Shown here: positions 1 to 31,051 of the stretch, in pieces | Position numbering within the stretch: the stretch's first letter is position 1 | Layout of the letters: each line of letters begins with the position of its first letter | Sequence record: LC788706.1 | Reading direction: 5' to 3' (one strand) | Origin: Escherichia coli phage KS_S14 | Length of the DNA stretch: 64,000 bases | Notes under the pieces: model-generated | Told to the model about the DNA's origin: nothing | The model's input: only the letters and a program-made list of their open reading frames with translations | Database searches by the model: none | Made by a program: the position numbers and the translations under genes

Positions 1-170
1 CTTTTGACGGTGATCACATTCCACTAGAACAATTATCCTGTGATTACATGATATTGAAGAACTTTGACGAGACAAAGATCTCAAGCGTTTATAATCGACA
101 GAATCCATTAACGTGGAAATATAAGAAGAAAAAGAAAGGCATCAAATTCTTAAAAAATGTAGTTGCTTAG
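1..170 (+). CDS. hypothetical protein, 3' fragment (gene starts upstream of window)
   Basis: Open frame from window edge to TAG at 168-170; Lys-rich C-terminus. Confidence 0.3.
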   Translation, partial: FDGDHIPLEQLSCDYMILKNFDETKISSVYNRQNPLTWKYKKKKKGIKFLKNVVA

Positions 171-219
171 TTTCCAAAAGTTCTATATAATAATTACATA
201 AATTGAACTGGAGAAGCTA

Positions 220-411
220 ATGAAACGATTAGTTAGATTTAAGTGTTGTGGTTCTGAGCATATTTTTACACATCTTCGTGAATTTAAAATGTGTGATTGT
301 GGTAAATCAGGCTATGACGCAGGGGACGGGTTCTATACACGTACTCTAGGGAACTTCAATGATTTAGAGTTTGAAGATCTCGAAAAACAAGATAAATCGA
401 CCGTTGGCTGA
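220..411 (+). CDS. small Cys-rich protein (possible zinc ribbon)
   Basis: 63 aa ORF with GGAG RBS upstream; CC..CDC motif; 3' end overlaps tRNA-Cys. Confidence 0.45.
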   Translation: MKRLVRFKCCGSEHIFTHLREFKMCDCGKSGYDAGDGFYTRTLGNFNDLEFEDLEKQDKSTVG

Positions 412-473
412 ATGGCTTAGGCGAAGGATTGCAAATCCTTTTTATGTGAGTTCAAATCTCATGCGGTCGTCCA
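398..473 (+). tRNA. tRNA-Cys (anticodon GCA)
   Basis: Hand fold: 7-bp acceptor cgaccgt/gcggtcg, anticodon stem aagga/tcctt with loop ttGCAaa, T-arm gtgag-ttcaaat-ctcat, encoded CCA. Confidence 0.65.
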
Positions 474-492
474 ATTTTTAAGGATATAAGTA

Positions 493-1011
493 GTGCACAA
501 AAAAGTCTTTGATAATTTACTAAAGAGAGGTTTTGTTACAATCGAACCCTTCTCTATAACCACAGAACTAATACAAAGATTTATGGAAGAGTATATAAAT
601 CTTACTGGTACTAGTGGGAATATTAAAAAGAACACAAATACTTTATACGCAAGAAAACTTGCAGCACTATCATTCATAAAGTTTAAGCAAGAAAATAAAC
701 TACCTATTTCTGAAGGTTTTGTATACTGTATTAGTAATCCTGCATGGAAAAATCAGTATAAAATAGGTATGAGTCAAAATCCAAAAGAGAGATTAGCTCA
801 ATATCAGACTTATTCCCCTTATAGGGATTATAAGTTAGAGCATTGGTCTTTTTGGTTTGACAAACGAAAAGGTGAAAAACTAATTCACCAGTATTTCAAA
901 GATTTAAAAGAACATGAGTGGTTTAGTATAAATTCTAGGGATCTTAGTAAATATCTAGAACGTATTAACTCTAGTTCTGACTTATATGGTTCCTTAGCTC
1001 TAATTGGTTAG
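493..1011 (+). CDS. T5orf172-family (GIY-YIG-like) protein, putative homing-endonuclease-like
   Basis: 172 aa; block EGFVY.I.NPAW...YKIGM...ERL..YQTYSPYRDYKL...EWF shared with paralog 2766..3239. Confidence 0.6.
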   Translation: MHKKVFDNLLKRGFVTIEPFSITTELIQRFMEEYINLTGTSGNIKKNTNTLYARKLAALSFIKFKQENKLPISEGFVYCISNPAWKNQYKIGMSQNPKERLAQYQTYSPYRDYKLEHWSFWFDKRKGEKLIHQYFKDLKEHEWFSINSRDLSKYLERINSSSDLYGSLALIG

Positions 1012-1065
1012 AGCGGCATCTTGTTAAGTTGAGGGTTGCTGGTTCGAATCCAGCAGGAACCGCCA
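988..1065 (+). tRNA. tRNA, probably Asn (anticodon GTT), anticodon stem imperfect
   Basis: Acceptor ggttcct/aggaacc, T-arm gctgg-ttcgaat-ccagc, CCA encoded; anticodon loop ttGTTaa with two stem mismatches. Confidence 0.5.
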
Positions 1066-1167
1066 AATTCTGTGTAGAGTTAAGTAAACCGGTAGCCAAC
1101 CAGCTATCATTGCTGACATCGAATTCAGCCACAGATACCATTTTCATTAATAACTGAGAAAACAAGC

Positions 1168-1353
1168 ATGTCCAAGAATGTAATTGCACAGTTAGAAGTT
1201 CATCGTGATAGCACTATCAACAATATTGAAGTTGAGAAGAAATACATCGAAGAACTTAAACATGATATACTAGTAAGTCTTAATCGTCTTAATGTACGAA
1301 AAGAGTTTCTTAAAGAACTTAATGCAGCTATTGAGAAACTCAAAGCTGAATAA
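1168..1353 (+). CDS. hypothetical small coiled-coil protein
   Basis: 61 aa ORF between two tRNA genes; weak RBS. Confidence 0.35.
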   Translation: MSKNVIAQLEVHRDSTINNIEVEKKYIEELKHDILVSLNRLNVRKEFLKELNAAIEKLKAE

Positions 1354-1362
1354 ACAGATCAT

Positions 1363-1439
1363 GCGACCGGGGCTGGCTTGGTAATGGTACTCCCCTGTCA
1401 CGGGAGAGAATGTGGGTTCGAATCCCATCGGTCGCGCCA
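1363..1439 (+). tRNA. tRNA-Asp (anticodon GTC)
   Basis: Acceptor gcgaccg/cggtcgc, anticodon stem ctccc/gggag with loop ctGTCac, T-arm gtggg-ttcgaat-cccat, CCA. Confidence 0.7.
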
Positions 1440-1465
1440 AACTAAACTAGCACGAGAAATATGCT

Positions 1466-1813
1466 ATGATTAATGCTAAAGAAGAATTGTTACTTGCCCT
1501 AAAGAATACTAATTCTGAAGTTAAGTGTATTAAGATAGAATTCGGTTATTATGGGGACAAAGAAGTTTGGGTATTACCCGTAGGTTATACAGAAAAAGAT
1601 ATTGAAGATTTTCTAAATAATCTAGACTTTAAATATGATTCTGGTTTCGGCGGACAATTGCTTTATGGTAACGTATGGTTTACTGATGGAACTTGGTTAG
1701 AACGTGGTGAATATGATGGTTCTGAATGGTGGGAGTACAAGACTACACCAGCAATCCCTGAAGAATGCCGAACAATTAATGGTGAAGTAGATAATACTTT
1801 ACGATTAAACTAA
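1466..1813 (+). CDS. hypothetical protein
   Basis: 115 aa ORF, protein-like composition, no recognised motif. Confidence 0.45.
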   Translation: MINAKEELLLALKNTNSEVKCIKIEFGYYGDKEVWVLPVGYTEKDIEDFLNNLDFKYDSGFGGQLLYGNVWFTDGTWLERGEYDGSEWWEYKTTPAIPEECRTINGEVDNTLRLN

Positions 1814-1935
1814 TAAAATTTCAGTGCAGAACACGGAGCTAGCAATTCGGAAGTGCTGACTCATGATAAGCTGCCTATGTACTTGCGAAGCGGTCGTGTC
1901 CAAGACTCGGACTCTTGCACTGAAAACAATCAAAC

Positions 1936-2055
1936 ATTCTAGCGTGGTTGATGGGGAAACCAGCTTGGCGAGGGCAGAAGCTCGTTCGATTCGAGTGAAA
2001 GAATGGTTCTCGTAAGTCCGCACAAGTGATAACAGGTTCGAGTCCTGTCTAGAAT
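1936..2055 (+). ncRNA. tRNA-like structured RNA candidate with two T-arm-like hairpins
   Basis: 7-bp terminal pairing attctag/ctagaat encloses hairpins ctcg-ttcgatt-cgag and acagg-ttcgagt-cctgt; no canonical cloverleaf; lies in a 370-nt ORF-free gap. Confidence 0.3.
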
Positions 2056-2205
2056 GACACTATAAAGTTTACTTATTATGTAGGTTCCGATAGATCGGCG
2101 GGTCTATTCTGGCATTTAAGAGAGGTCTCGCAAACTTCTTTGTCAGCCGTGGGGTTCATAGCCTCCAGGTGGCCTACACAATAAGTAAATTTATTAAAAA
2201 TTCAT

Positions 2206-2234
2206 TTGCTATTCTGCTTAATTATCCGTATAAT
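2206..2234 (+). promoter_or_regulatory. sigma70-type early promoter (TTGCTA-17-TATAAT)
   Basis: Consensus -35/-10 with 17-bp spacer and AT-rich upstream. Confidence 0.6.
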
Positions 2235-2266
2235 ATATTTTATAAAGTGAAGAGAAGGAAAGCAAA

Positions 2267-2425
2267 ATGAAACACAAGATAGCTCAAGTTTTTATGGCAT
2301 TATGGTGTATGCCAATAGCTATAACAGCATTTAATCTAGATACTTTTACTATAGAAGAAAAATGTATCGGATTAGTTAGCGGCTTTAGTATGCTGGGCTT
2401 ATCTTTGTTGTGGTTGAAGAAATAA
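2267..2425 (+). CDS. small membrane protein (52 aa)
   Basis: ATG 33 nt after promoter -10 with GAAGGA RBS; hydrophobic; below ORF-track cutoff. Confidence 0.35.
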   Translation: MKHKIAQVFMALWCMPIAITAFNLDTFTIEEKCIGLVSGFSMLGLSLLWLKK

Positions 2426-2429
2426 TATT

Positions 2430-2507
2430 CTCCGTGTAGCTCAGTTTGGCCAGAGCGTTTCGTTTGGGGCGATAGGGTCGGGGGTTCAAATCCTCCCACG
2501 GAGACCA
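2430..2507 (+). tRNA. tRNA-Pro (anticodon TGG)
   Basis: Acceptor ctccgtg/cacggag, anticodon loop ttTGGgg, T-arm ggggg-ttcaaat-cctcc, CCA. Confidence 0.55.
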
Positions 2508-2513
2508 AACAAT

Positions 2514-2591
2514 TGCGGGTTAGATCTCTGGTAGAGATCGCTAGTCTCATAAGCTAGAAAGAGGTAGGTTCGATTCCTGCACCCGCTTCCA
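2514..2591 (+). tRNA. tRNA with CAT anticodon (Met or Ile2)
   Basis: Anticodon stem ctagt/gctag with loop ctCATaa, T-arm gtagg-ttcgatt-cctgc, CCA; 1-72 mismatch. Confidence 0.5.
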
Positions 2592-2611
2592 TTTTAATAG
2601 AGGATTTCGAA

Positions 2612-2776
2612 ATGAAAGTATTTCGATTAGTAGTAAGTGACAAACGGTCAGGTAAGAATACATCAAAATCCTTACTTGCCCATTATGGTAAAAATTGGGA
2701 TGAAGTAATGGCAGAGTTTAATACTAATCACCCTTACTTGAAAGTTCACTCTATTAAGGAAGTTTATGCTTATTAA
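2612..2776 (+). CDS. small hypothetical protein (54 aa)
   Basis: ATG with GAGGA RBS; stop overlaps start of next gene. Confidence 0.35.
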   Translation: MKVFRLVVSDKRSGKNTSKSLLAHYGKNWDEVMAEFNTNHPYLKVHSIKEVYAY

Positions 2777-3239
2777 CAGGGTGCTTCAAGCTCTAGATCT
2801 TCCAGAGCTCTTTACTATTACCGACCCCTTAATACATCGGTATATGGAAAAGTATAATGAAATCTCTGGTAAAAAAGGGAAACTAAAATCCTCAGAATTT
2901 AAGTTCTGTTATAGAATGGCAGCATTAAACCTCTTAAAGTACAAGAGGGAGCATAAAATCCCTATAACAGAAGGATTTGTCTATGTAATAGGTAATCCAG
3001 CATGGCCTGGACTATATAAGATAGGTATGACAGTAGATGTGAATGAAAGACTGTCTAGTTATCAAACATATTCGCCTTATCGTGATTACAAGTTATACCA
3101 TTTCAGATTCTCCTCGGACAAGAGAAGAACTGAAAAAGCATTACATAACCTTCTGAAGGACTACAAAGTATCAGGAGAATGGTTTGAAGTACCTCTGTTA
3201 GACGCCTTCAAACTATTAGTAGAAAATTTGGATTGCTAA
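2766..3239 (+). CDS. T5orf172-family (GIY-YIG-like) protein, paralog of 493..1011
   Basis: 157 aa; shares N- and C-terminal blocks with 493..1011; 3' end overlaps tRNA-Lys. Confidence 0.6.
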   Translation: MLINRVLQALDLPELFTITDPLIHRYMEKYNEISGKKGKLKSSEFKFCYRMAALNLLKYKREHKIPITEGFVYVIGNPAWPGLYKIGMTVDVNERLSSYQTYSPYRDYKLYHFRFSSDKRRTEKALHNLLKDYKVSGEWFEVPLLDAFKLLVENLDC

Positions 3240-3307
3240 CTCAACTGGATAAGAGTACCGGACCTTTAATCCGTCAGTTCTGGGTTCGAATCCCAGGCAA
3301 TCCACCA
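3230..3307 (+). tRNA. tRNA-Lys (anticodon TTT), tentative
   Basis: Acceptor ggattgc/gcaatcc, T-arm ctggg-ttcgaat-cccag, CCA; anticodon loop ccTTTaa with C at position 33. Confidence 0.5.
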
Positions 3308-3325
3308 ATTTCAAGAAAAACTCAG

Positions 3326-3354
3326 TTGCTTGATGCTTAATTTCTTGTTATAAT
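3326..3354 (+). promoter_or_regulatory. sigma70-type early promoter (TTGCTT-17-TATAAT) driving a non-coding transcript
   Basis: Consensus hexamers followed by ATAAATTGATGAGGAGAG box. Confidence 0.6.
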
Positions 3355-3361
3355 ATTTATA

Positions 3362-3592
3362 TAAATTGATGAGGAGAGATCCTCATCATAGTTCACTAAG
3401 GTATTAGCTCGACCTAGGACTGGCTGCCAAAAAGCACGATCCCTACGATTCGGGAGAAGTTCTAGATTAGTCCACTAGATTCAGCGGCAACTGAATAGTG
3501 TATTGGGTTTGCGAGATGACGCAGTTCCTTCCGCTCGAAGCGAAGGTGCTGTAGTTACGCCGAGCTAATAGCCTTAGTAAACTAAAGAATTT
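3362..3592 (+). ncRNA. promoter-driven structured RNA candidate upstream of tRNA-Ala
   Basis: Starts with perfect 7-bp hairpin gatgagg/cctcatc after the promoter; no ORF with RBS; further hairpins; ends at tRNA-Ala. Confidence 0.35.
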
Positions 3593-3671
3593 GGGGAATG
3601 GGTCTGCATGGAGTGGACACCTCGCTTGCACCGAGGACATCAGAACGGTTCGATTCCGTTATTCTCCACCA
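3593..3671 (+). tRNA. tRNA-Ala (anticodon TGC)
   Basis: Acceptor ggggaat/attctcc, anticodon stem cctcg/cgagg with loop ctTGCac, T-arm aacgg-ttcgatt-ccgtt, CCA. Confidence 0.6.
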
Positions 3672-3676
3672 AATAC

Positions 3677-3753
3677 GCGTGATTGATGGAATTGGCATAC
3701 ATACCGTCCTTAGAAGTCGGGTTTTGAGGGTTCGAATCCCTTGTCACGCACCA
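3677..3753 (+). tRNA. tRNA with TAG anticodon (Leu-type) but short variable region, atypical
   Basis: Acceptor gcgtgat/gtcacgc, T-arm gaggg-ttcgaat-ccctt, CCA; anticodon loop ctTAGaa; irregular D region. Confidence 0.45.
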
Positions 3754-3878
3754 AATTTGATGGTCAGAGTAAATTAAACCTACTATCTCGGTTGAGCTGT
3801 TTTAATGGGTTCGAATCCCAGCGAGGCGTAACTGCCTGGTGTGATAGAGGCATCATTCCACTAACATTGGAAAAACTA

Positions 3879-4109
3879 ATGAAACGAAAATTAAAAAAGT
3901 CTTATATAATTAAGATAAATAAGCTACGAAGTAGGGCAAAAGGATGGCCACTTCGAATATTAATTGCGGATAACCATACTAGATACCATGCGGAACAACG
4001 TCATTACAAACAGTGGGAGTCATACTGCCGCTCAAAAGCAGGTCGTTTAGATGGATCTTATGAGTTTCTATTTGGTAAGAAGCCTACTAGAGTAGCTTTA
4101 GGTAATTAG
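3879..4109 (+). CDS. small basic protein (76 aa)
   Basis: In-frame ATG inside ORF-track entry 3741..4109, whose upstream part is tRNA-like sequence; Lys/Arg-rich. Confidence 0.35.
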   Translation: MKRKLKKSYIIKINKLRSRAKGWPLRILIADNHTRYHAEQRHYKQWESYCRSKAGRLDGSYEFLFGKKPTRVALGN

Positions 4110-4114
4110 TACTT

Positions 4115-4205
4115 GGAAGAGCAAATCGAATTGGCGACGAAAACCGCTTGGAAAGTGGCTGACTGGTAAAACGGCTTGAGAGTTCAAATCTCTCCTCTTC
4201 CGCCA
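4115..4205 (+). tRNA. tRNA-Ser (anticodon GGA), class II
   Basis: Acceptor ggaagag/ctcttcc, anticodon loop ttGGAaa, long variable arm, T-arm gagag-ttcaaat-ctctc, CCA. Confidence 0.55.
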
Positions 4206-4217
4206 AACAATTTATAT

Positions 4218-4312
4218 GGTAGGTCAATCCAACGGCTGGCGCTGGACTCCGACTTGAAATCGGTTGATCGTAGTGATACGGTGTAAGGGTTCGATCCCCT
4301 TACCTACCTCCA
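4218..4312 (+). tRNA. tRNA-Ser (anticodon TGA), class II
   Basis: Acceptor ggtaggt/acctacc, anticodon loop ctTGAaa, long variable arm, T-arm aaggg-ttcgatc-ccctt, CCA. Confidence 0.55.
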
Positions 4313-4315
4313 AAT

Positions 4316-4451
4316 CTTGGAATATGCCGGAATTGGTAGACGGGACTGCCGAATAGGTTTACTAGGAACATCCACTCCTAGAAATATACCTTAAAAGCGG
4401 TTGAGTTAAATGGTCTAACTCATGAAGGTTCAAGCCCTTCTATTCCTTGAT
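4316..4451 (+). ncRNA. unresolved tRNA-like element (possibly class II tRNA with insertion)
   Basis: Leu-like D-loop gaattggtagac, hairpins ctagg/cctag and gagtta/taactc, perfect T-arm gaagg-ttcaagc-ccttc, no CCA; cloverleaf not resolved by hand. Confidence 0.3.
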
Positions 4452-4562
4452 ACATCAATGGCTCAAAGTGTAACGGTGCTATTTGATGCTCTTGGAAAGA
4501 CTTTCCCGACATGCGTTCGGGGGTAAGCTTCTGAGGCTAGAATAGAAGAGTTTCTGAGAGCC

Positions 4563-4682
4563 GCCACAATTGAAAATTCGTACTCGTCTTGAGCTGCGTG
4601 CAATAGGAGATAACTTGATTAGTATTCTAGAACATGCTAATTGAGGATGGTTTCGCTAACCCTGCGAGTTTTCAATTGTGGC
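4563..4682 (+). ncRNA. long-range stem structure (14-bp perfect inverted repeat) abutting tRNA-His
   Basis: gccacaattgaaaa at 4563-4576 pairs with ttttcaattgtggc at 4669-4682, enclosing about 90 nt; 3' arm overlaps tRNA-His 5' end. Confidence 0.3.
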
Positions 4683-4754
4683 TATATCATAATTGGTTAA
4701 TGATCCTGATTGTGAATCAGGCCTATGTGGATTCGAATTCCACTAGCCACCCCC
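4678..4754 (+). tRNA. tRNA-His (anticodon GTG)
   Basis: Acceptor gtggcta/tagccac, anticodon stem cctga/tcagg with loop ttGTGaa, T-arm gtgga-ttcgaat-tccac. Confidence 0.65.
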
Positions 4755-4780
4755 AAATTAACTTAAATAGGAAATAAAAT

Positions 4781-4981
4781 ATGGCTGATTTCTGCAAACA
4801 ATGCTCCATTGATATGTGGGGTAGAGATACTGGCGACTTATCTGGTCTGATTACAGAAGCCGAAGTCAAAGAAGGTTATGGTGCAGTTGTGGTTTGCGAA
4901 GGATGCGGAGTCATTCGAGTAGATCATGAAGGTAAGCGCCTTGAAGAACCTGAGCCAACCGCAATGGTTCCTGTAGAGTGA
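4781..4981 (+). CDS. small CxxC protein (zinc-ribbon-like)
   Basis: 66 aa; CKQC and CEGCG motifs; RBS present. Confidence 0.45.
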   Translation: MADFCKQCSIDMWGRDTGDLSGLITEAEVKEGYGAVVVCEGCGVIRVDHEGKRLEEPEPTAMVPVE

Positions 4982-4982
4982 A

Positions 4983-5564
4983 ATGAAATTAGAGAATTTT
5001 AAAGTAATCCCAGAATATCCAGAATACTTAATCTCTCCATATGGAGAGGTTTACTCTACTAAGAGTAATAAACTACTTACACATCATTTAGGCAGTGCAG
5101 GATACCCGTTTGTAACGTTCTATGAACAGGGTAAGAATGTTTCTGTTGTATTGCATAGATTATTGGCTAGAGTATTTAAAGATTTACCTTCGCTAGAATC
5201 TGAACTAGAGGTGGATCACAAAGATAGGAATAAATTGAACTTTACCCTAGATAATCTAGTTGTCATGACCAAGGAAGATCACAGAGTAAAAACTACACTT
5301 GAAAGAGGGCATACAGTAGGTGGTAGTAAATGTCCTTATTGTAATAAACAAATAAATTCTTCATCTAAAACTTGTTTTGATTGTAAACCTAAGAGTAGCC
5401 CTGATATTACAGCAGAGCAAATAGAATATTGGGTAATAAACTATTCATGGGTTAAAGCATCAAAAGAGCTGGGACTATCTGATAATGGTCTACGTAAACG
5501 TTATAAATCCTTAACAGGTAAAGATCCAAAAAGTATTAAGAAGAAGGTTAGCCAAGTCGGTTAA
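4983..5564 (+). CDS. HNH homing endonuclease
   Basis: 193 aa; EVDHKDRNKLNFTLDNL HNH motif and C-terminal CxxC..CxxC; 3' end overlaps tRNA-Gln. Confidence 0.65.
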   Translation: MKLENFKVIPEYPEYLISPYGEVYSTKSNKLLTHHLGSAGYPFVTFYEQGKNVSVVLHRLLARVFKDLPSLESELEVDHKDRNKLNFTLDNLVVMTKEDHRVKTTLERGHTVGGSKCPYCNKQINSSSKTCFDCKPKSSPDITAEQIEYWVINYSWVKASKELGLSDNGLRKRYKSLTGKDPKSIKKKVSQVG

Positions 5565-5617
5565 GGCTGGGGTCTCTGAAATCCTGATCAGTGGTTCGAA
5601 TCCACTACCTTCTGCCA
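5542..5617 (+). tRNA. tRNA-Gln (anticodon CTG)
   Basis: Acceptor agaaggt/accttct, anticodon loop ctCTGaa, T-arm agtgg-ttcgaat-ccact, CCA. Confidence 0.55.
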
Positions 5618-5623
5618 AACAAT

Positions 5624-5701
5624 TGGGGATTAGCTTAGCTTGGCCTAAAGCTTCGGCCTTTGAAGTCGAGATCATTGGTTCAAATCCAATATCCCCTGCC
5701 A
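5624..5701 (+). tRNA. tRNA-Gln (anticodon TTG)
   Basis: Anticodon stem tcggc/gtcga with loop ctTTGaa, T-arm attgg-ttcaaat-ccaat, CCA; 1-72 mismatch. Confidence 0.55.
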
Positions 5702-5708
5702 AATAATC

Positions 5709-5784
5709 GCGGTTAAGCACACGGGTTGTGCCGCAGGCCTTCCAAGCCTCGCTGAGTAGGGTTCGATTCCCTCTAGCCGCTCCA
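5709..5784 (+). tRNA. tRNA-Gly (anticodon TCC)
   Basis: Acceptor gcggtta/tagccgc, D-stem gcac/gtgc, anticodon loop ctTCCaa, CCA. Confidence 0.6.
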
Positions 5785-5800
5785 ACTTTAAGGAAACACT

Positions 5801-6022
5801 ATGCACGTTTTTGAGTTTCGTAATAAGAGTACTGATAAGCGAGTTATCATTATTGGAGAAACATATCGAGCATATGAACAAACTGACGGCTCTGTTATCT
5901 TGAATGATGAGAAAGGAGGTTTTAGCTTTTATCCAGAAGAAACGTATGAAGAATTTCGTACTAAGTTTCTTTTACCAGACTGGCTAGCAGTAGCCGAGCA
6001 ACGAGAATCCGAAGATGGCTGA
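5801..6022 (+). CDS. hypothetical protein
   Basis: 73 aa ORF with AAGGAAA RBS. Confidence 0.5.
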   Translation: MHVFEFRNKSTDKRVIIIGETYRAYEQTDGSVILNDEKGGFSFYPEETYEEFRTKFLLPDWLAVAEQRESEDG

Positions 6023-6179
6023 TAACCTAAAATTAAAGGTTGACAAACAAAAGAAATACGTTGAGATTGAATTAGGCGAAGAACGCTTAAAGCTAACTTT
6101 CGAGTTTCTTCAGCAGTTGGCAATGACAGTAATGTCAGATAAATCCCCTGTATTTGAAAAAGAAATTCCGTTGAAATAA
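6015..6179 (+). CDS. small hypothetical protein (54 aa)
   Basis: ATG overlaps stop of upstream gene; below ORF-track cutoff. Confidence 0.35.
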   Translation: MADNLKLKVDKQKKYVEIELGEERLKLTFEFLQQLAMTVMSDKSPVFEKEIPLK

Positions 6180-6189
6180 CGGGTTTATT

Positions 6190-6264
6190 GCTCCTAAAGC
6201 ATTGCTGGTGATGCAGTTGCCTTGTAAGCATCTGAACCGGGTTCGATTCCTGGTGGGAGCACCA
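6190..6264 (+). tRNA. tRNA-Thr (anticodon TGT)
   Basis: Acceptor gctccta/tgggagc, D-stem gcat/atgc, anticodon loop ctTGTaa, T-arm ccggg-ttcgatt-cctgg, CCA. Confidence 0.6.
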
Positions 6265-6279
6265 AATTTAAAAATTCAT

Positions 6280-6308
6280 TTGCTTTCTCTCTTATTTATT
6301 GCTATAAT
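6280..6308 (+). promoter_or_regulatory. sigma70-type early promoter (TTGCTT-17-TATAAT)
   Basis: Consensus hexamers; downstream ATAAATTAATGAGAGG box then RBS and ATG at 6339. Confidence 0.6.
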
Positions 6309-6338
6309 ATTTATATAAATTAATGAGAGGGAAACCAA

Positions 6339-6629
6339 ATGAAACGTTATCTTTCTGTAGTATTCCAAACTGGTGGCCAAAGGTACACCTATGAATTTCC
6401 ATCTTCTTGGAAAATCAAAGAGGGTGATCAAGTAGTAGTGCTAACACCGCGTGAAGGATATAAAGTAGTAACGGTTAAACAAGTATTTCCAAAAGATCAT
6501 GAACCAGCTAAAGGCATCCGCTATAAGATGATTCATGGTGTGGTTCGTCAAGTACCACGAACTGAGGTAGAAGTAGATAAGGCTGGAGAAACTAAATTCC
6601 ATTATACTTCTTACTTAGACAGTGTGTGA
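6339..6629 (+). CDS. hypothetical protein
   Basis: 96 aa ORF immediately after consensus promoter. Confidence 0.5.
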   Translation: MKRYLSVVFQTGGQRYTYEFPSSWKIKEGDQVVVLTPREGYKVVTVKQVFPKDHEPAKGIRYKMIHGVVRQVPRTEVEVDKAGETKFHYTSYLDSV

Positions 6630-6644
6630 TGTAAATATTTTAAT

Positions 6645-6721
6645 GCTTCGGTAGCTTAGCGATCTAAAGCACTCGGCTGATAACCGAGAGATCGGGGGTT
6701 TAAATCCCTCCCGGAGTACCA
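6645..6721 (+). tRNA. tRNA-Ile (anticodon GAT)
   Basis: Acceptor gcttcgg/ccggagt, anticodon stem ctcgg/ccgag with loop ctGATaa, T-arm ggggg-tttaaat-ccctc, CCA. Confidence 0.65.
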
Positions 6722-6818
6722 AATTTAGGAATTAAGACTATGCGTCCAGGAAAGTTTAAAAAAAGCTAATTGGTCTAAAGAGTATAAAGAATACTTACTT
6801 AGTCTAGTAAAACATAAC

Positions 6819-6894
6819 AGTTAGTTGGCAGAGTGGTTATGCACCTCCTTCATACGGAGCGACTACAGTGGTTCAAATCCACTACTAACTACCA
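6819..6894 (+). tRNA. tRNA with CAT anticodon (Met or Ile2)
   Basis: Acceptor agttagt/actaact, anticodon stem ctcc/ggag with loop ttCATac, T-arm agtgg-ttcaaat-ccact, CCA. Confidence 0.55.
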
Positions 6895-6931
6895 TTAAAA
6901 TAGCTAGAGATAGCTAAATTTAGGAGCAGCT

Positions 6932-7126
6932 ATGTTAACAATTAAAATAATGTCAGCCAAGAATGGTGAACATATCCATACGGGCAAAAGCGTAAGCTTT
7001 AATCCTAGAAATAAGAGATTGGCTATAGTTGGAGTAGATCAAGCCATCTTTTTAAAAGAAGATGAAGTAGCATACGTCATGAACCAAACTGGTAAGACAG
7101 TTTCCGTATACTATGGAAAAGTATAA
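6932..7126 (+). CDS. hypothetical protein
   Basis: 64 aa ORF with AGGAG RBS. Confidence 0.45.
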   Translation: MLTIKIMSAKNGEHIHTGKSVSFNPRNKRLAIVGVDQAIFLKEDEVAYVMNQTGKTVSVYYGKV

Positions 7127-7168
7127 AGAATAAAGAGCTGAGCCAAATTCTAACATCGGGGAGATCTA

Positions 7169-7537
7169 ATGAAAGCATATCAAAATCTTAAATCTGGCGT
7201 AATTAACCTTGTTCATGAAAATCAGATTATTCAGCTATATTCCGACAACGGTGAACTTAAACAGAAAGTTCTAGTTGAAGATCTAGAAGGTATCACACCA
7301 CAATTCGATCCTGAAGCCTTCCGTGAAGTTAAGGTGGAAGTCGCCCCTCAAATCGAAGGTGGTCAGCACCTAAATGTCAATGTGTTAAGCCGTGATCAGC
7401 TTTTGGATGCGCAGAAACATCCTGAAAAATACCCTCAATTAACTATCCGTGTTTCAGGGTACGCTGTGCGTTTTAACGCACTGACGCGTGAACAGCAGAA
7501 CGACGTTATTAGTCGTACATTTACTCAGGCGATGTAA
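7169..7537 (+). CDS. grcA: autonomous glycyl-radical cofactor (GrcA/YfiD-like) protein
   Basis: 122 aa; C-terminus [10 protein letters not shown]...[23 protein letters not shown] matches the glycyl-radical signature RVSGYAV of GrcA. Confidence 0.7.
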
Positions 7538-7618
7538 TGGGGCTTGGATACGGTTTCTACGAACTACGTAAGGTAGTCGAGCAAACTCCATTTATCTCCC
7601 AAGTTTTAGGAGAAATGT

Positions 7619-7933
7619 GTGGATCGAGCATTAAGACGTCATCACCGGCAACGTGTAAAGAACAACCGCAAGAAGTATTGGACAGTCTTCCCACATGAAG
7701 AAAGCCCTAAACGGTTAGGTATTATCACTACTACTCCTTGTATCTGTTCTTGTTGGATGTGCGGGAATCCTCGCAAATACTTTAAGAATAGTAAAGCAGG
7801 GATGAAAACCTCGGAGATTAGGAAAATGGAAGCAATGATTACGGATATTTCAAATGATGAATTTGATGGCTTTGTAGGATTCGGAGAAGGAATTAGCTCA
7901 GGCTGTTTCGAAGATGTACGCCCCGATTTGTAA
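7619..7933 (+). CDS. hypothetical Cys-rich protein
   Basis: 104 aa ORF, probable GTG start; followed by terminator. Confidence 0.4.
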   Translation: MDRALRRHHRQRVKNNRKKYWTVFPHEESPKRLGIITTTPCICSCWMCGNPRKYFKNSKAGMKTSEIRKMEAMITDISNDEFDGFVGFGEGISSGCFEDVRPDL

Positions 7934-7944
7934 TTAATAACAAA

Positions 7945-7978
7945 CCCCAGCTATTGAATAGGTAGTCTGGGGTTTTTC
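7945..7978 (+). terminator. rho-independent terminator
   Basis: Stem ccccag...ctgggg followed by T5 run. Confidence 0.6.
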
Positions 7979-8054
7979 TGTATACAGGTAGATAATTTAT
8001 GTATAATAAAATTCATCCACATTAGGTTAATTTAAAAAACTTAATGGAGGTAAT

Positions 8055-8402
8055 ATGAGCCGTACTTATCGTAAACAATCTGGTGATCAGTGGTGGAAGT
8101 CTAAAGAACAATTCTCTCAAGAATATTCTTTCATCAAAGAAAATGGCTACTGGATTCGTGTTATTTATGCCAAATCTTGGGACGACATCAAAAAAGAAAT
8201 GAAGGAAGCAACCATTCGTAATGAGAAAAAGGATGGTTATAACTGGAATTCTGTTAGTAAGAATGTTAAGTGGCATTCTAATAAAATGGTTCGTCAAGGG
8301 AATCGTCAAGAACTCCACCGCGTGATGAAAGATCCAGAAAATTACGACTATAATCGCGATCATGACATGCGTAAGCGTGGATTATGGTGGTGCTACGACT
8401 AA
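8055..8402 (+). CDS. hypothetical protein
   Basis: 115 aa ORF with GGAGG RBS. Confidence 0.5.
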   Translation: MSRTYRKQSGDQWWKSKEQFSQEYSFIKENGYWIRVIYAKSWDDIKKEMKEATIRNEKKDGYNWNSVSKNVKWHSNKMVRQGNRQELHRVMKDPENYDYNRDHDMRKRGLWWCYD

Positions 8403-8419
8403 TTTCTGAAATAATTCAT

Positions 8420-8448
8420 TTGCTAAACCTCTCTTTTCTTGTTATAAT
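8420..8448 (+). promoter_or_regulatory. sigma70-type early promoter (TTGCTA-17-TATAAT)
   Basis: Consensus hexamers with downstream ATAAATTGATGGGAGAGG box. Confidence 0.6.
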
Positions 8449-8478
8449 ATATTTATAAATTGATGGGAGAGGTTTGAA

Positions 8479-8760
8479 ATGAAAACTCGTCTAGACTGTG
8501 CTATCCACGTTGTCGAGCATAGTGTTGTTGGAACCTGTATGTCTTACCATGAGGCAGGTCGCTTAATTAAAGAACGTGTGGCAGATGTATGTGGATTGAA
8601 GATTACTGCTGAGGAAGCTGATGATCTTTTAGGCCAAGCACTTGAGAAAACCGAAATATTCCTCTGTGATTCTTGTTCTTGGTGGTGTGAAGCTCACGAA
8701 CATTCCTTCAATGATTATGATGTATGCCGTGACTGTAATGAGGAAGATACTGATGAATAA
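8479..8760 (+). CDS. hypothetical acidic Cys-rich protein
   Basis: 93 aa ORF after promoter; CDSCSWWC...CRDC motifs. Confidence 0.5.
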   Translation: MKTRLDCAIHVVEHSVVGTCMSYHEAGRLIKERVADVCGLKITAEEADDLLGQALEKTEIFLCDSCSWWCEAHEHSFNDYDVCRDCNEEDTDE

Positions 8761-9052
8761 GTTTATTATTGCATTGATGGTTTCGGCAGTTAGTTTCGGT
8801 TCTCTAGCATCTACCAAAGTTTTTATGAAAAATGGCAATGTTAAAGTACAACAGAACGGCATTATTACCGAGTATGGTAAAGTTCGTGATGTTAAGGAAC
8901 GTAACGGCAAAGTAGAAATATATACTAATAAAAACTTCTCTACTCCGGCTGTTACTGTTAGCAAACGTGGTGGGATAACTACTCAACGTACTAATAGCTC
9001 TAGTTCTTTTACTTGTCGTTATGATTGCGACTTTGAAGGTGAAGATGAATAA
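8753..9052 (+). CDS. secreted or periplasmic protein with N-terminal signal peptide
   Basis: ATG overlapping upstream stop; N-terminus MNKFIIALMVSAVSFGSLAST is signal-peptide-like. Confidence 0.45.
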   Translation: MNKFIIALMVSAVSFGSLASTKVFMKNGNVKVQQNGIITEYGKVRDVKERNGKVEIYTNKNFSTPAVTVSKRGGITTQRTNSSSSFTCRYDCDFEGEDE

Positions 9053-24884: not shown

Positions 24885-25070
24885 TGAATGCGAATGATAA
24901 TGAGAATAATTATCATTTAAGAAGTGGAATGCAAATGATAATTATTCTCATTTACGAAAGGGGGGTGAGAACTATTCAGGAAGTGAAACGATTCTCATTT
25001 AAAAAGTGAAATGATTATCGGTTAGACAGTGGAATGCGAATGATAATGATTCTCATTTAAGAATGGAAGT
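24885..25070. repeat. cluster of about 60-bp direct repeats each containing AATGAGAAT/ATTCTCATT palindromes
   Basis: ggaatgc(g/a)aatgataat three times; attctcattta four times; long AT-rich inverted repeats. Confidence 0.6.
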
Positions 25071-28966: not shown

Positions 28967-29361
28967 TGCAAAAGTCCTTATATCGCCGCCTATCGTGTCA
29001 AGTTATTTCGTGCTGTGGATAACGTTGTGGATAACCTAAATGATAGTGCTTCTCACTTAGCTAGATGATTTCTTATAGTTATTATTTCTCATTAATTTAT
29101 ATGTATATTATATATCATGAAATAGTTAGTTAGCTAATGAGATTTTTCGTGATTAATAGTCTGCTAATAGTTTACTCGGTTACAGTCCACCAGCATGATT
29201 ATCATCCTAGCAATTATTATCCTGCTATCTTTCCGATGCATACTAACAAATAAAAGTCAATTAATTTATTTCATAAAATAAGTAGTTATCCACTGGAAAA
29301 TAAAAGTCAAGTGGATAACTAGGAAAATTTCATTTTTGCTTTTGGGGATAAGTTATCAACA
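28953..29361. promoter_or_regulatory. DnaA-box cluster in divergent control region
   Basis: TGTGGATAA at 28953, 29024, 29036; TTATCCAC at 29286; GTGGATAAC at 29311; TTATCAACA at 29353. Confidence 0.5.
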
Positions 29362-29766
29362 AGGCTAGAATGCACCTAAAACGCCCTAGAACGCGATGAA
29401 AGTTTTAGCCATGCCATTGCATTGCCTACCCTCGTTTATCGCTACCACGAGCTTTTTAGTTTTTGTCAAGTAGGGCAAGGCAAATATAAATGAAAAAATT
29501 ACTTGCCAACCTGCTGGGTTTTATGGTATTCGCGCGCCCGTTTCTTTTAATTTTAGGCCGTCGCCGCACGCCGTCCGGTGAGTTTTTGTCTTTACATTTC
29601 TTTACAAAAATAAGGTTGCGCCATTTTCGGGAATCCCCTATTATTTATCTCGTAGGGCGGCAATGACGAACTACACGGCGGGAAGTTTACCGCCACGCTC
29701 TTTAAAAATTGGGTACATCTTAAAGCCTATCGGCGGTAAACTTATACATTATAAGGAATCGACGAT

Positions 29767-29970
29767 ATGAAACAAACTTTATTGATCACTGGCAAGCCTA
29801 TTAAGGCACTAGATAGCAAAACAAAAAAATTGTTGACAGTAGCGCAAAGATCGGTAAAATACCGATTCACGCAGTACAAGAAAGGCCGCCAGCAAGGTTT
29901 AGAAATGATCTGGCGAAATATTATGATTGACTTGAAAGAAAATCATAAAAAACTGCAAAAAATTGTTTGA
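29767..29970 (+). CDS. hypothetical basic protein
   Basis: 67 aa; first ORF of + strand pre-early-like operon. Confidence 0.4.
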   Translation: MKQTLLITGKPIKALDSKTKKLLTVAQRSVKYRFTQYKKGRQQGLEMIWRNIMIDLKENHKKLQKIV

Positions 29971-30136
29971 CAATCTAGCCGATAGGTTTTAAGATGTACT
30001 CAGTTCGATAAGAGCGATAACTTGATAAAATTTGACGGTCGGTGCTTACCATAATGCATCCCGCCCCCTAACTGGGATATAGCGGCCTACGTGGAGTTCT
30101 TTAAATTGGTTAAACTGGCGAGCGGATTGTTACTTA

Positions 30137-30164
30137 TTACCTGCTAGTATTTTCTAGCAGGTAA
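30137..30164 (+). promoter_or_regulatory. intercistronic palindrome ttacctgctag/ctagcaggtaa
   Basis: 11-bp perfect arms with 6-nt AT loop between genes. Confidence 0.4.
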
Positions 30165-30200
30165 TGCGGAACAATCCCCAAATAACTAGGAGTTTATATT

Positions 30201-30452
30201 ATGCAAAACGTTATTACCGCGCCTAAAATTGGTCAATCCGTCTTTATTCCTTTCGTTACTAAAACGGATGAATTAACCGGAAAAGCCGAACGCATTAAAG
30301 GTGCGGCGCTTATGCCGTTCGATACAATCGACGCGGTATACGCTGAAACGGAACGCAGTAACAACGGCAAACCAGTTTTTAGCGTTCGCGTTAAATCCGG
30401 TGACGTTGTAAAGGTTGTTCAACGCAACGAAAAATGGGAAGCTGTTTTGTAA
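30201..30452 (+). CDS. hypothetical protein
   Basis: 83 aa ORF with AGGAG RBS. Confidence 0.45.
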   Translation: MQNVITAPKIGQSVFIPFVTKTDELTGKAERIKGAALMPFDTIDAVYAETERSNNGKPVFSVRVKSGDVVKVVQRNEKWEAVL

Positions 30453-30466
30453 TTTAGTGTTAACTT

Positions 30467-30494
30467 TATATTCCCCTGAAATATGGGGAATATA
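30467..30494 (+). promoter_or_regulatory. intercistronic palindrome tatattcccc/ggggaatata
   Basis: 10-bp perfect arms, 8-nt loop. Confidence 0.4.
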
Positions 30495-30553
30495 ACGATT
30501 AACATTAAGTTAATCATTAAATCCCTTAAATTAAACTAATAGGAGTTTTTACC

Positions 30554-30961: not shown

Positions 30962-30962
30962 T

Positions 30963-31006
30963 AGTTATATCTTGCCCCCTTTTAGTGAGGGGGCAATAAT
31001 ATAACT
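30963..31006 (+). promoter_or_regulatory. intercistronic GC-cored palindrome
   Basis: ttatatcttgccccc...gggggcaataatataa imperfect inverted repeat. Confidence 0.4.
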
Positions 31007-31051
31007 GTTTAGCGATAGTTATTTTCTTCCCTTAAATCAGGAGTTTTAAAA

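What the first reader, a model, noticed from the sequence alone, without database searches (positions are those of the whole stretch)
4316..4684. Unresolved tRNA-like element and a 14-bp perfect long-range inverted repeat in the tRNA island
4316-4451 has a Leu-like D-loop, two strong hairpins and a perfect T-arm but I could not fold a canonical cloverleaf; it may be a class II tRNA with an insertion. Further on, gccacaattgaaaa (4563-4576) pairs perfectly with ttttcaattgtggc (4669-4682), enclosing about 90 nt; the 3' arm overlaps the first bases of tRNA-His, suggesting a processing or regulatory structure.
Basis: seen in the sequence. Interest (0 to 1): 0.5.

Follow-up and report, generated by a model that had tools for sequence, protein, structure and literature searches.

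The report
Known T5 stable RNAs: RNA1, RNAI, RNAIII
The flagged stretch holds three small stable RNA genes already annotated in phages T5 and BF23 (a tRNA-like RNA with a stretched anticodon arm, and two hairpin RNAs), so the sequence features are real and conserved, but they are a re-sighting of RNAs whose function is still unknown.

Summary
The window is a T5-like phage (99.9% identical to Escherichia phage vB_Eco_mar004NP2). Window 4316-4676 is 95-100% identical to three misc_RNA genes annotated in T5 st0 (AY692264) and BF23 (NC_042564). These are RNA1 ("tRNA-like RNA with unknown functions", 4316-4459), RNAI (4460-4566) and RNAIII (4571-4676), both "stable RNA with unknown functions".

Both observations hold. 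RNA1 is a class-II, tRNA-Leu-like cloverleaf whose 7-nt anticodon loop is replaced by a 47-nt extension. Across 22 distinct homologues, 15 of 37 pairs show compensatory changes, and the apical loop ACAUCCAC is invariant. It is not a spliced decoding tRNA. ARAGORN's intron mode calls Leu, Phe or Val depending on the homologue. No CCA is encoded, unlike all 17 tRNAs in the island.

The 14-bp inverted repeat is the core of a 20-bp RNA helix at the base of RNAIII. It joins RNAI's 3' GCCA to the first five bases of tRNA-His. The helix is kept around four unrelated interior cassettes (99% paired, 9 double changes). The annotated RNAIII ends leave 2-nt 3' overhangs in it, which suggests RNase III processing; this is inferred, not shown.

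Verdict: already known, function unknown, modest interest.

The parts
4316..4459 (+). RNA1: tRNA-like stable RNA, 144 nt
   Evidence: 95.1% identical over its full length to BF23 rna1, annotated 'tRNA-like RNA with unknown functions'. The same feature is annotated in T5 st0. Its own covariance model scores 168 bits here.
4318..4324 (+). RNA1 acceptor stem, 5' strand; pairs with 4441-4447, with U.U at 1:72
   Evidence: ARAGORN -i drawing. Four of the 7 pairs show double changes across homologues.
4327..4343 (+). RNA1 D-arm: 3-bp stem and Leu-type loop GGAAUUGGUAGA
   Evidence: Invariant in 22 homologues. The next-best hits of the RNA1 model are tRNA-Leu genes.
4345..4401 (+). RNA1 extended 'anticodon' arm. 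It comprises stem 4345-4349/4397-4401, an A-rich internal loop, stem 4355-4358/4388-4391, and apical stem 4362-4367/4376-4381 with the invariant loop ACAUCCAC at 4368-4375
   Evidence: Nine of its 15 pairs have compensatory changes, and the loop is invariant in all 22 sequences. ARAGORN labels 4350-4389 an 'intron'.
4402..4422 (+). RNA1 long variable arm: 7-bp stem with loop AAUGGUC
   Evidence: Pair 92:104 is AU, UA or CG in different homologues, and the loop is invariant.
4424..4440 (+). RNA1 T-arm: GAAGG UUCAAGC CCUUC
4448..4459 (+). RNA1 3' tail UGAUACAUCAAU, with no CCA; it abuts the 5' end of RNAI
4460..4566 (+). RNAI: 107-nt stable RNA. It is a long irregular hairpin closed by GGCUC/GAGCC (4460-4464 with 4558-4562), followed by G and CCA at the 3' end
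   Evidence: 98.1% identical to BF23 rnaI. Consensus folds were obtained for two interior variants. The 3' end reads GCCA.
4563..4582 (+). 5' arm of the 20-bp helix. It contains RNAI's 3' GCCA (4563-4566), the 4-nt spacer CAAU (4567-4570) and the first 12 nt of RNAIII
4571..4676 (+). RNAIII: 106-nt stable RNA. Its interior (4583-4662) is a replaceable cassette
   Evidence: 100% identical to BF23 rnaIII. Four unrelated interiors occur in relatives.
4663..4682 (+). 3' arm of the 20-bp helix. It contains the last 14 nt of RNAIII, U4677, and bases 1-5 of tRNA-His (GUGGC, 4678-4682)
4678..4753 (+). tRNA-His(GUG), whose 5' acceptor strand is sequestered by the helix in the precursor
   Evidence: ARAGORN and Rfam at 59.9 bits. 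T5 and BF23 annotate it from one base further upstream.

Best explanation
Window 4316-4676 encodes three small stable RNAs of T5-like phages, already annotated in T5 and BF23 as RNA1, RNAI and RNAIII. No promoter or convincing terminator was found inside the segment, which fits co-transcription with the neighbouring tRNAs (inferred).

RNA1 is a non-decoding tRNA mimic, inferred to derive from a class-II tRNA-Leu gene. It keeps the acceptor stem, D-arm, long variable arm and T-arm, which together form the tRNA 'elbow'. The 7-nt anticodon loop is replaced by a conserved 47-nt extension that ends in an invariant ACAUCCAC loop. I infer that it is recognised and stabilised like a tRNA, and that the invariant loop is a specific contact for a protein or RNA not yet identified.

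RNAI is a long hairpin with an acceptor-like 5-bp closing stem and an encoded GCCA 3' end.

The helix pairs RNAI's 3' GCCA and a CAAU spacer with U-1 and bases 1-5 of tRNA-His. The helix, its conservation, and the positions of the annotated RNA ends inside it are shown. The mechanism is inferred: host RNase III cuts both strands at 4570/4571 and 4676/4677. That releases RNAIII with 2-nt 3' overhangs. It leaves RNAI with a 4-nt trailer to be trimmed back to CCA, and frees the 5' end of tRNA-His. The interior of RNAIII is a swappable cassette; only the helix is conserved.
For: Identity. BLAST maps BF23 rnaIII, rnaI and rna1 onto 4571-4676, 4460-4566 and 4316-4459 at 100%, 98.1% and 95.1% identity. 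The misc_RNA annotations are in AY692264 and NC_042564, and the pairwise alignment to T5 is.

RNA1 structure. With 22 distinct homologues and 37 pairs, 94.5% of cells are paired, against 37-49% when partners are slid by 1-3 columns. Fifteen pairs carry double changes, and 0 of 500 shuffles reach the observed score. The apical loop, variable-arm loop and D-loop are invariant. The closest other matches to the RNA1 model are tRNA-Leu genes, at 30.1 bits in the window and 34.7 bits in T4.

RNA1 is not a decoding tRNA. ARAGORN -i gives Leu(taa) for 7 sequences, Phe(aaa) for 14 and Val(aac) for 1, with the 'intron' position shifting. All 17 tRNAs of the island encode CCA, but RNA1 does not.

The helix. 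It folds as 20 bp in three cassette types, with z-scores of -6.7, -6.8 and -4.2. A fourth cassette, in Pectobacterium phage DU_PP_V, has a 21-bp helix. Across the five distinct arm pairs, 99% of cells are paired and 9 of 20 pairs show double changes, against 32-47% paired in slid controls. G.U pairs are tolerated on the + strand only, which points to RNA rather than DNA structure (read).

RNA ends. The annotated ends 4571 and 4676 lie in the helix (partners sum to 9245) and leave 2-nt 3' overhangs on both products. E. coli RNase III is reported to take part in maturation of T4-encoded tRNAs (PMC4810235).

Transcription. No promoter-like site on the + strand and no convincing terminator lies inside 4316-4684.
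Against: No experiment available here shows RNase III cleavage. The annotated ends of T5 and BF23 RNAIII may be partly set by adjacency to tRNA-His rather than measured.

The spacer 'CCA(a)acaat|' that precedes RNAIII also precedes tRNA-fMet and tRNA-Gln2. RNase P could therefore make the 5' cut.

RNA1 and RNAI have only modest thermodynamic z-scores (-2.1 and -1.5).

The elements are dispensable. Gostya9 lacks RNA1 and TrudiRoth lacks half of RNAI, all of RNAIII and tRNA-His. The viable T5-123 deletion (29191-32442) removes all three RNAs.

No function for RNA1's invariant loop was found. Its complement is not enriched in the window.
Confidence: 0.7

Rival explanations
1. RNA1 is a true intron-containing tRNA-Leu(UAA). 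The 40-nt insert would be removed, CCA added, and the product would decode UUA/UUG for an AT-rich phage.
For: ARAGORN -i calls tRNA-Leu(taa) with a 40-nt intron. One GenBank record (JLBYU40, OK272480) annotates the homologue as tRNA-Leu(taa), 134 nt. In the T5 group, the 7 nt before the 3' stem strand read CUUAAAA, a proper Leu(UAA) anticodon loop. No tRNA-Leu(UAA) gene was called in the window.
Against: The implied anticodon and intron position are not conserved: Leu in 7 sequences, Phe in 14, Val in 1, and U33 is lost in most lineages. The insert is under structural selection, with compensatory pairs and an invariant loop. Forty nucleotides is far too short for a group I intron, and E. coli has no tRNA splicing endonuclease (established knowledge). 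No intron family was matched in Rfam. There is a U.U mismatch at 1:72, a U discriminator and no CCA, while all 17 tRNAs encode CCA. T5 and BF23 annotate the full 144-nt RNA as the stable species.
Confidence: 0.04
2. The inverted repeat acts at the DNA level. Its arms would be conserved recombination or homing-endonuclease junctions (or MITE-like terminal repeats) that allow the interior cassette to be swapped, and the RNA helix would be incidental.
For: The interiors of RNAI and RNAIII occur in mosaic combinations that break exactly at the conserved junction GAGAGCCGCCACAAUUGA. HNH homing endonuclease genes lie close by in the island. Each arm contains the palindrome CAATTG.
Against: Positions 12-20 of the helix lie inside the variable cassettes, differ between cassettes, and still pair in each. 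In Pectobacterium phage DU_PP_V, a U-A to G-C double change falls in the otherwise invariant part. G.U pairs would be A.C mismatches on the other strand or in a DNA cruciform. Helix length stays near 20 bp in four unrelated cassettes. Both roles could coexist.
Confidence: 0.12
3. The helix ends are made by RNase P (and RNase E) rather than RNase III. RNAIII would be a stable spacer fragment protected by its stem, and the helix would mainly delay folding and maturation of tRNA-His.
For: The 5' context 'acaat|U' of RNAIII matches that of tRNA-fMet and tRNA-Gln2. RNAI is a hairpin with NCCA, a classic minimal RNase P substrate (established knowledge). The 3' end of RNAIII is adjacent to the annotated 5' end of tRNA-His.
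Against: RNAIII's stem is followed by AUUG rather than RCCA. Canonical RNase P cleavage of a tRNA-His with U-1.C73 would fall at 4677/4678, not at the annotated 4676/4677. The exact 2-nt 3' stagger on both strands, and a conserved helix length of about two turns, are what RNase III requires.
Confidence: 0.2
4. The region encodes small proteins, as many GenBank records annotate ('hypothetical protein' over RNAI/RNAIII, for example EscoHU1_056).
For: ORFs of 30-47 codons exist at 4422-4526 (+), 4463-4603 (-) and 4634-4777 (+). CDS annotations appear in some relatives.
Against: The ORFs overlap tRNA-His or cross cassette boundaries that are replaced wholesale. Substitutions follow base-pairing rather than codon structure. 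Most records annotate nothing here.
Confidence: 0.02

Closest known systems
Bacteriophage T5 / BF23 stable RNAs RNA1, RNAI and RNAIII (GenBank AY692264 and NC_042564, misc_RNA rna1, rnaI, rnaIII)
   Same: Sequence is 95-100% identical. Order and spacing are the same (tRNA-Ser1, RNA1, RNAI, 4-nt gap, RNAIII, tRNA-His), and lengths match at 144, 107 and 106 nt.
   Different: Nothing material. In this phage RNA1 directly follows tRNA-Ser1, whereas T5 and BF23 have a small ORF between them.
Phage T4 species 1 RNA (rnaC) and species 2 RNA (rnaD)
   Same: They are small stable RNAs encoded inside a phage tRNA cluster and their roles are unknown (PMC3014915). T4 rnaC (139 nt) folds like RNA1: a closing stem, a very long central arm, a long variable-arm-like hairpin, a canonical T-arm GGGUUCGAAUCCC, and no CCA.
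   Different: There is no meaningful sequence relationship. The RNA1 model scores only 11.9 bits on rnaC, against 34.7 bits on T4 tRNA-Leu. The two phages belong to different families.
Class-II tRNA-Leu
   Same: RNA1 has a 3-bp D-stem with a GGAAUYGGUAKAC loop, a long variable arm, a T-arm and a 7-position acceptor stem. tRNA-Leu genes are the next-best hits of the RNA1 model.
   Different: RNA1 has no 7-nt anticodon loop, no conserved anticodon and no CCA. It has U.U at 1:72 and U73 rather than A73.
RNase III processing stems (E. coli rRNA operon stems; T4 tRNA cluster maturation)
   Same: An imperfect double helix of about 20 bp is formed by sequences flanking a released RNA inside a polycistronic stable-RNA transcript, and the product ends are staggered by 2 nt. 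The T4 precedent is cited in PMC4810235.
   Different: Cleavage is not demonstrated for T5. The helix here also sequesters the 5' acceptor strand of the downstream tRNA and the CCA end of the upstream RNA.
T5 / BF23 RNA2 (a second 'tRNA-like RNA with unknown functions')
   Same: It lies in the same island (window 1935-2059) and has a tRNA frame with an expansion of about 48 nt in the anticodon arm. ARAGORN -i calls it 'tRNA-Arg(ccg) i(34,48)'. It has no CCA.
   Different: Its sequence differs; it was not detected by the RNA1 model.

Membership tests
T5-group stable RNAs RNA1 / RNAI / RNAIII | Full-length sequence identity to the annotated misc_RNA features | tested here: met
   Identity is 95.1%, 98.1% and 100% over 144, 107 and 106 nt.
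T5-group stable RNAs RNA1 / RNAI / RNAIII | Synteny: located between tRNA-Ser(UGA) and tRNA-His in the tRNA island | tested here: met
T5-group stable RNAs RNA1 / RNAI / RNAIII | Accumulation as stable RNAs of these sizes in infected cells | not testable with these tools
   This rests on the GenBank notes ('stable RNA') in NC_042564. The primary papers are not in the searchable library.
Canonical decoding tRNA (class II, Leu) | Detected by standard tRNA finders or models | tested here: not met
   ARAGORN in default mode makes no call in any of the 22 homologues. Rfam's tRNA model scores 21.6 bits, below its gathering score of 29, and only on 4380-4448.
Canonical decoding tRNA (class II, Leu) | Acceptor stem, D-arm, variable arm and T-arm with the elbow nucleotides | tested here: met
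Canonical decoding tRNA (class II, Leu) | 7-nt anticodon loop with U33 and a conserved anticodon | tested here: not met
   A 47-nt extension occupies the loop position. The implied anticodon is taa, aaa or aac, depending on the homologue.
Canonical decoding tRNA (class II, Leu) | 3' CCA, which is encoded in every tRNA of this island, and the A73 discriminator needed for Leu identity | tested here: not met
   The 3' end reads ...UAUUCC-U-UGAUAC, while 17 of 17 tRNAs encode CCA.
Intron-containing bacterial or phage tRNA (group I intron) | A self-splicing intron of about 200 nt or more in the anticodon loop, with a matching intron RNA family | tested here: not met
   The insert is 40 nt. No intron family appears among the Rfam matches.
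tmRNA (standard or permuted) | tRNA-like domain together with a tag reading frame, detected by ARAGORN or Rfam | tested here: not met
   ARAGORN -m finds 0 genes. There is no Rfam tmRNA hit in 4316-4684.
RNase III processing site | About two turns (roughly 20 bp) of double-stranded RNA | tested here: met
   The helix is 20 bp in the window and 19-21 bp in the other three cassette types.
RNase III processing site | Product ends staggered with 2-nt 3' overhangs | tested here: inconclusive
   The annotated ends 4571 and 4676 give exactly this geometry. Whether those ends were measured is unknown.
RNase III processing site | rnc-dependent cleavage in vivo or in vitro | not testable with these tools
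   Requires an experiment.
T4 rnaC / rnaD | Sequence or covariance-model homology | tested here: not met
   The RNA1 model scores 11.9 bits on rnaC. Only the overall architecture is alike.

The most novel reading that the evidence does not exclude
RNA1 may belong to a functional class of phage 'anticodon-less tRNA mimics', together with T5 RNA2 and, by convergence, T4 RNAC. Such RNAs would keep the tRNA body but replace the anticodon loop with a conserved extension. They would act as decoys or inhibitors of host tRNA-directed enzymes, for example anticodon nucleases of anti-phage defence systems. The invariant ACAUCCAC loop would be the specific contact. This would extend the recently shown anti-defence role of T5 tRNAs (tRNA-Lys against PARIS, tRNA-Tyr against retron Eco7) to non-decoding RNAs.
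Probability: 0.12. Interest if true: 0.75.

Novelty: already known. Interest (0 to 1): 0.3.

Why it matters
The entities themselves are not new. T5 RNA1, RNAI and RNAIII are annotated in two GenBank records, although most of the roughly 500 related genome records leave the region blank or call spurious ORFs or a 'tRNA-Leu'.

The comparative picture assembled here adds three things:
- RNA1 is under strong structural and loop-sequence selection across at least two subfamilies of Demerecviridae and the genus Sugarlandvirus.
- The RNAI-RNAIII-tRNA-His junction always forms a helix of about 20 bp, even though its interior is swapped between four unrelated cassettes.
- The annotated RNA ends fit an RNase III cut.

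These points give concrete, cheap experiments for a question that has stayed open for T4 and T5: what do the non-tRNA stable RNAs of phage tRNA clusters do? That question has become more relevant now that phage tRNAs are known to counter tRNA-cleaving immune systems. On the practical side, genome annotators should label these loci as ncRNA rather than as hypothetical proteins or intron-bearing tRNA-Leu.

Tried and rejected
- **Rfam, all families, E <= 1, on window 1-9000.** Nothing was found for 4316-4677 except a sub-threshold partial tRNA hit.
- **tmRNA (ARAGORN -m).** No gene was found.
- **Intron-bearing tRNA-Leu.** Considered because of ARAGORN -i and one GenBank annotation. Rejected because the implied anticodon is inconsistent across homologues and CCA is absent.
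- **Antisense or kissing partner for the invariant RNA1 loop within the 64-kb window.** There was only the self match plus one 1-mismatch hit, which is no more than chance.
- **IMG/VR scan with the 14-mer GGAACATCCACUCC.** Most hits were chance matches. After BLAST filtering only about 13 T5-like contigs remained, adding little diversity.
- **Metagenome scan with a two-block pattern.** Ten further T5-like RNA1 copies scored 151-172 bits; three further pattern matches gave no covariance-model hit at E <= 0.001 and are probably chance. No homologue outside T5-like phages was found, though the pattern was strict.
- **Promoter and terminator scan.** There were no + strand promoter-like sites in the segment. 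The two 'terminator-like' hits are the RNA1 T-arm and part of the RNAIII stem, each only 5 bp.
- **Literature searches for a function or the primary T5 RNA papers.** The primary 1980s papers are not in the library, and no paper in it assigns a function to these RNAs.
- **Homology of RNA1 to T4 rnaC.** Not supported.
Full report
**What the window is.** Window 4100-4800 is 99.9% identical to Escherichia phage vB_Eco_mar004NP2 and matches about 700 phage records, most of them T5-like. Relatives fetched for comparison are classified in Demerecviridae. The finding lies in the tRNA island. ARAGORN finds 14 tRNAs between 398 and 6894. It misses tRNA-Ser(GGA), tRNA-Ser(UGA) and tRNA-Gly(UCC), which relatives annotate. 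The 362 nt between tRNA-Ser(UGA) and tRNA-His are left unannotated in most relatives.

**Checking the observation.** Both parts are real.
- For 4316-4451, ARAGORN in default mode and the Rfam tRNA model give no valid call. Rfam reaches 21.6 bits on 4380-4448, below its gathering score of 29.
- The MFE fold of that segment is nevertheless a cloverleaf with a long central arm.
- ARAGORN with introns allowed reports tRNA-Leu(taa) at 4318-4448 with a 40-nt insert at 4350-4389. It shows a U.U mismatch at 1:72 and no CCA.
- The inverted repeat is found at 4563-4580 and 4665-4682, and is the only long-range repeat of that strength in the 64 kb.
- As RNA it is a 20-bp helix, 4563-4582 with 4663-4682, including two G.U pairs. 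Its 3' arm covers bases 1-5 of tRNA-His.

**Identity.** The T5 st0 record AY692264 annotates three misc_RNAs between tRNA-Ser1 and tRNA-His: rna1 (144 nt), rnaI (107 nt) and rnaIII (106 nt). The BF23 tRNA-region record NC_042564 annotates the same three. Its notes read 'tRNA-like RNA with unknown functions' for RNA1 and 'stable RNA with unknown functions' for RNAI and RNAIII. BLAST places them in the window as follows (alignment):

| RNA | Window coordinates | Identity to BF23 |
|---|---|---|
| RNA1 | 4316-4459 | 95.1% |
| RNAI | 4460-4566 | 98.1% |
| RNAIII | 4571-4676 | 100% |

The finding is therefore a re-sighting of known RNAs. The other T5 record, AY587007, and nearly all relatives do not annotate them. 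Some call ORFs there, and one (JLBYU40) calls RNA1 'tRNA-Leu(taa)', 134 nt.

**RNA1 anatomy and conservation.** I collected 22 distinct homologues from Tequintavirus, Epseptimavirus, Sugarlandvirus (Klebsiella phages) and Pectobacterium phage DU_PP_V of the Mccorquodalevirinae. About 490 phage records contain a homologue. I tested this structure:
- acceptor stem, 4318-4324 with 4441-4447
- D-stem, 4327-4329 with 4341-4343
- 'anticodon' stem, 4345-4349 with 4397-4401
- second stem, 4355-4358 with 4388-4391
- apical stem, 4362-4367 with 4376-4381
- variable arm, 4402-4408 with 4416-4422
- T-arm, 4424-4428 with 4436-4440

Of all cells, 94.5% are paired, against 37-49% when partners are slid by 1-3 columns. 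Fifteen of the 37 pairs carry changes on both sides, and none of 500 shuffles reaches the observed score. The apical loop ACAUCCAC, the variable-arm loop and the D-loop are invariant. A covariance model of RNA1 scores 168 bits on itself. Its next-best hits are the phage's own tRNA-Leu(UAG) at 30 bits and, in T4, tRNA-Leu at 34.7 bits and tRNA-Ser at 33.8 bits. This supports descent from a class-II tRNA, most likely Leu.

**Why RNA1 is not a spliced tRNA.**
- ARAGORN -i calls an 'intron-bearing tRNA' in all 22 homologues, but as Leu(taa) in 7, Phe(aaa) in 14 and Val(aac) in 1, with the intron position shifting.
- U33 and the anticodon are therefore not conserved, whereas the insert is.
- All 17 tRNAs of the island encode CCA. 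RNA1 ends ...UAUUCC-U-UGAUACAUCAAU.
- Forty nucleotides is too short for a group I intron, and E. coli has no tRNA splicing endonuclease (established knowledge).
- The annotated stable species is the full 144 nt.

**RNAI.** It begins GGCUC and ends GAGCC-G-CCA, so it is a hairpin with an acceptor-like stem and an encoded CCA end. Two interior variants exist, of 107 and 100 nt. Each folds as a long irregular hairpin with a few compensatory pairs. The Pectobacterium version closes with GGGCC/GGCUC and also ends GCCA.

**The helix and RNAIII.** The interior of RNAIII is not conserved. Four unrelated cassettes occur: T5-type, smaug/Eps7-type, UTK0009-type and DU_PP_V-type. They combine mosaically with the two RNAI variants. 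Every cassette is closed by a helix of 19-21 bp that starts at RNAI's GCCA and ends in tRNA-His's GUGG(C/U). Across the five distinct arm pairs:
- 99% of cells are paired.
- Nine of the 20 pairs show double changes.
- One double change is U-A to G-C in the otherwise invariant CAAUUG core.
- Slid controls give 32-47% paired.

G.U pairs occur on the + strand only, which argues for an RNA helix rather than a DNA one.

The annotated ends fall inside the helix. RNAI ends at 4566 (CCA). A 4-nt spacer, CAAU, follows. RNAIII runs from 4571 to 4676, and T5 and BF23 annotate tRNA-His from the next base. Paired positions sum to 9245, so 4571 pairs with 4674. Cuts at 4570/4571 and 4676/4677 therefore leave 2-nt 3' overhangs on both products, which is the geometry of RNase III. 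E. coli RNase III is reported to take part in maturation of T4-encoded tRNAs (PMC4810235). This step is inferred. RNase P is a serious rival for the 5' cut, because the same 'CCA(a)acaat|' spacer precedes tRNA-fMet and tRNA-Gln2.

**Context and dispensability.** No + strand promoter-like site or convincing terminator lies within 4316-4684. This fits co-transcription from the upstream promoter that T5 and BF23 annotate as P13b. The elements are not essential.
- Gostya9 lacks RNA1.
- TrudiRoth has a deletion from mid-RNAI to tRNA-Thr.
- The viable T5-123 mutant deletes 29191-32442. In AY587007 coordinates that interval spans the whole segment.
- In the PARIS study, only the fragment 31885-32870 rescued T5-123; the other fragments had no effect. 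The fragment carrying these RNAs is thus not an anti-PARIS factor in that assay.

**Comparison with known systems.** Membership in the T5 RNA1/RNAI/RNAIII set is met by sequence and synteny. RNA1 fails the tests for a canonical tRNA, an intron-bearing tRNA and tmRNA. The closest analogue outside the family is T4 rnaC (species 1 RNA) with rnaD. They sit in the same kind of locus and their function is also unknown (PMC3014915). T4 rnaC folds with the same overall plan: a closing stem, a very long central arm, a long side hairpin and a canonical T-arm. There is no sequence or model homology. Within this window, RNA2 (1935-2059) is a second tRNA frame with an expansion of about 48 nt.

**Function.** The best-supported account has three parts.
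1. RNA1 is a non-decoding tRNA mimic, handled and stabilised like a tRNA, whose invariant loop is a specific but unidentified contact.
2. RNAI and RNAIII are processed hairpin RNAs.
3. The conserved helix is a processing and insulating device, probably an RNase III site. It defines RNAI's 3' end and tRNA-His's 5' end, and it temporarily sequesters the tRNA-His acceptor strand.

A decoy role for RNA1 against tRNA-targeting defence systems is attractive, given recent work on T5 tRNAs. It has no direct support here.

**Verdict.** The features are already known as annotated T5/BF23 stable RNAs of unknown function. Interest is modest at 0.3. It rests on the comparative evidence and the testable processing model, not on discovery of a new element.

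Noticed in passing
window 1935-2059: Homologue of T5/BF23 RNA2, annotated 'tRNA-like RNA with unknown functions'. It folds as a tRNA frame with an expansion of about 48 nt in the anticodon arm. ARAGORN -i calls it tRNA-Arg(ccg) i(34,48). It ends ...AUGACA without CCA. It is a second anticodon-less tRNA-like RNA in the same island.
   Followed up: partly
window 1068-1140, 2078-2180 and 3402-3573: Homologues of BF23/T5 RNA3 (tRNA-like, ends ACCA), RNAIV and RNA2H (172 nt, strongly structured, just downstream of promoter P13b). All are 96-99% identical to the annotated stable RNAs and all have unknown function.
   Followed up: partly
window 4117-4206, 4218-4312 and 5709-5785: ARAGORN in default mode misses tRNA-Ser(GGA), tRNA-Ser(UGA) and tRNA-Gly(UCC). 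Relatives annotate them. Rfam scores two of them only as sub-threshold tRNA-Sec hits. Both tRNA-Ser are marked as pseudo in AY587007.
   Followed up: partly
window 4677-4755: tRNA-His has U rather than G at position -1 opposite C73, so the usual G-1:C73 identity pair is not encoded. T5 and BF23 still annotate a 78-nt tRNA that includes this base. The window also has one more C than T5 at the 3' end (CCCCCA against CCCCA).
   Followed up: no
window 3754-3840: A tRNA-fragment-like stretch with a perfect T-arm (UGGGUUCGAAUCCCA) but no cloverleaf, located between tRNA-Leu(UAG) and the next ORF. It may be a decayed tRNA gene. ARAGORN finds nothing even in intron mode.
   Followed up: partly
L131 838-944 (Salmonella phage UTK0009); also L138 and L126: An extra structured insert of about 105 nt lies between RNA1 and RNAI, together with a third RNAIII cassette. 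This shows that the RNA1 / RNAI junction is another point of modular insertion.
   Followed up: no
L133 926-1150 (Klebsiella phage GZ8, Sugarlandvirus): Here RNA1 is followed not by RNAI, RNAIII and tRNA-His but by about 220 nt of other GC-rich, hairpin-rich non-coding sequence. That sequence ends in a terminator-like hairpin and a promoter. About 210 nt of unannotated, structured-looking sequence also lies upstream of RNA1.
   Followed up: no
window 3330-3375 and 6285-6325: Near-identical promoter-like repeats (cttgttataatatttatataaatt...gatgagg and ttgctataatatttatataaattaatgagagg). They correspond to T5/BF23 promoters P13b and P11 ('repeat b' in AY587007). The simple promoter scan did not flag them.
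   Followed up: no
window 24899-24952: A perfect 20-nt inverted repeat (AATGAGAATAATTATCATTT) with a 14-nt spacer. It is the strongest hairpin in the window outside the tRNA island.
   Followed up: no
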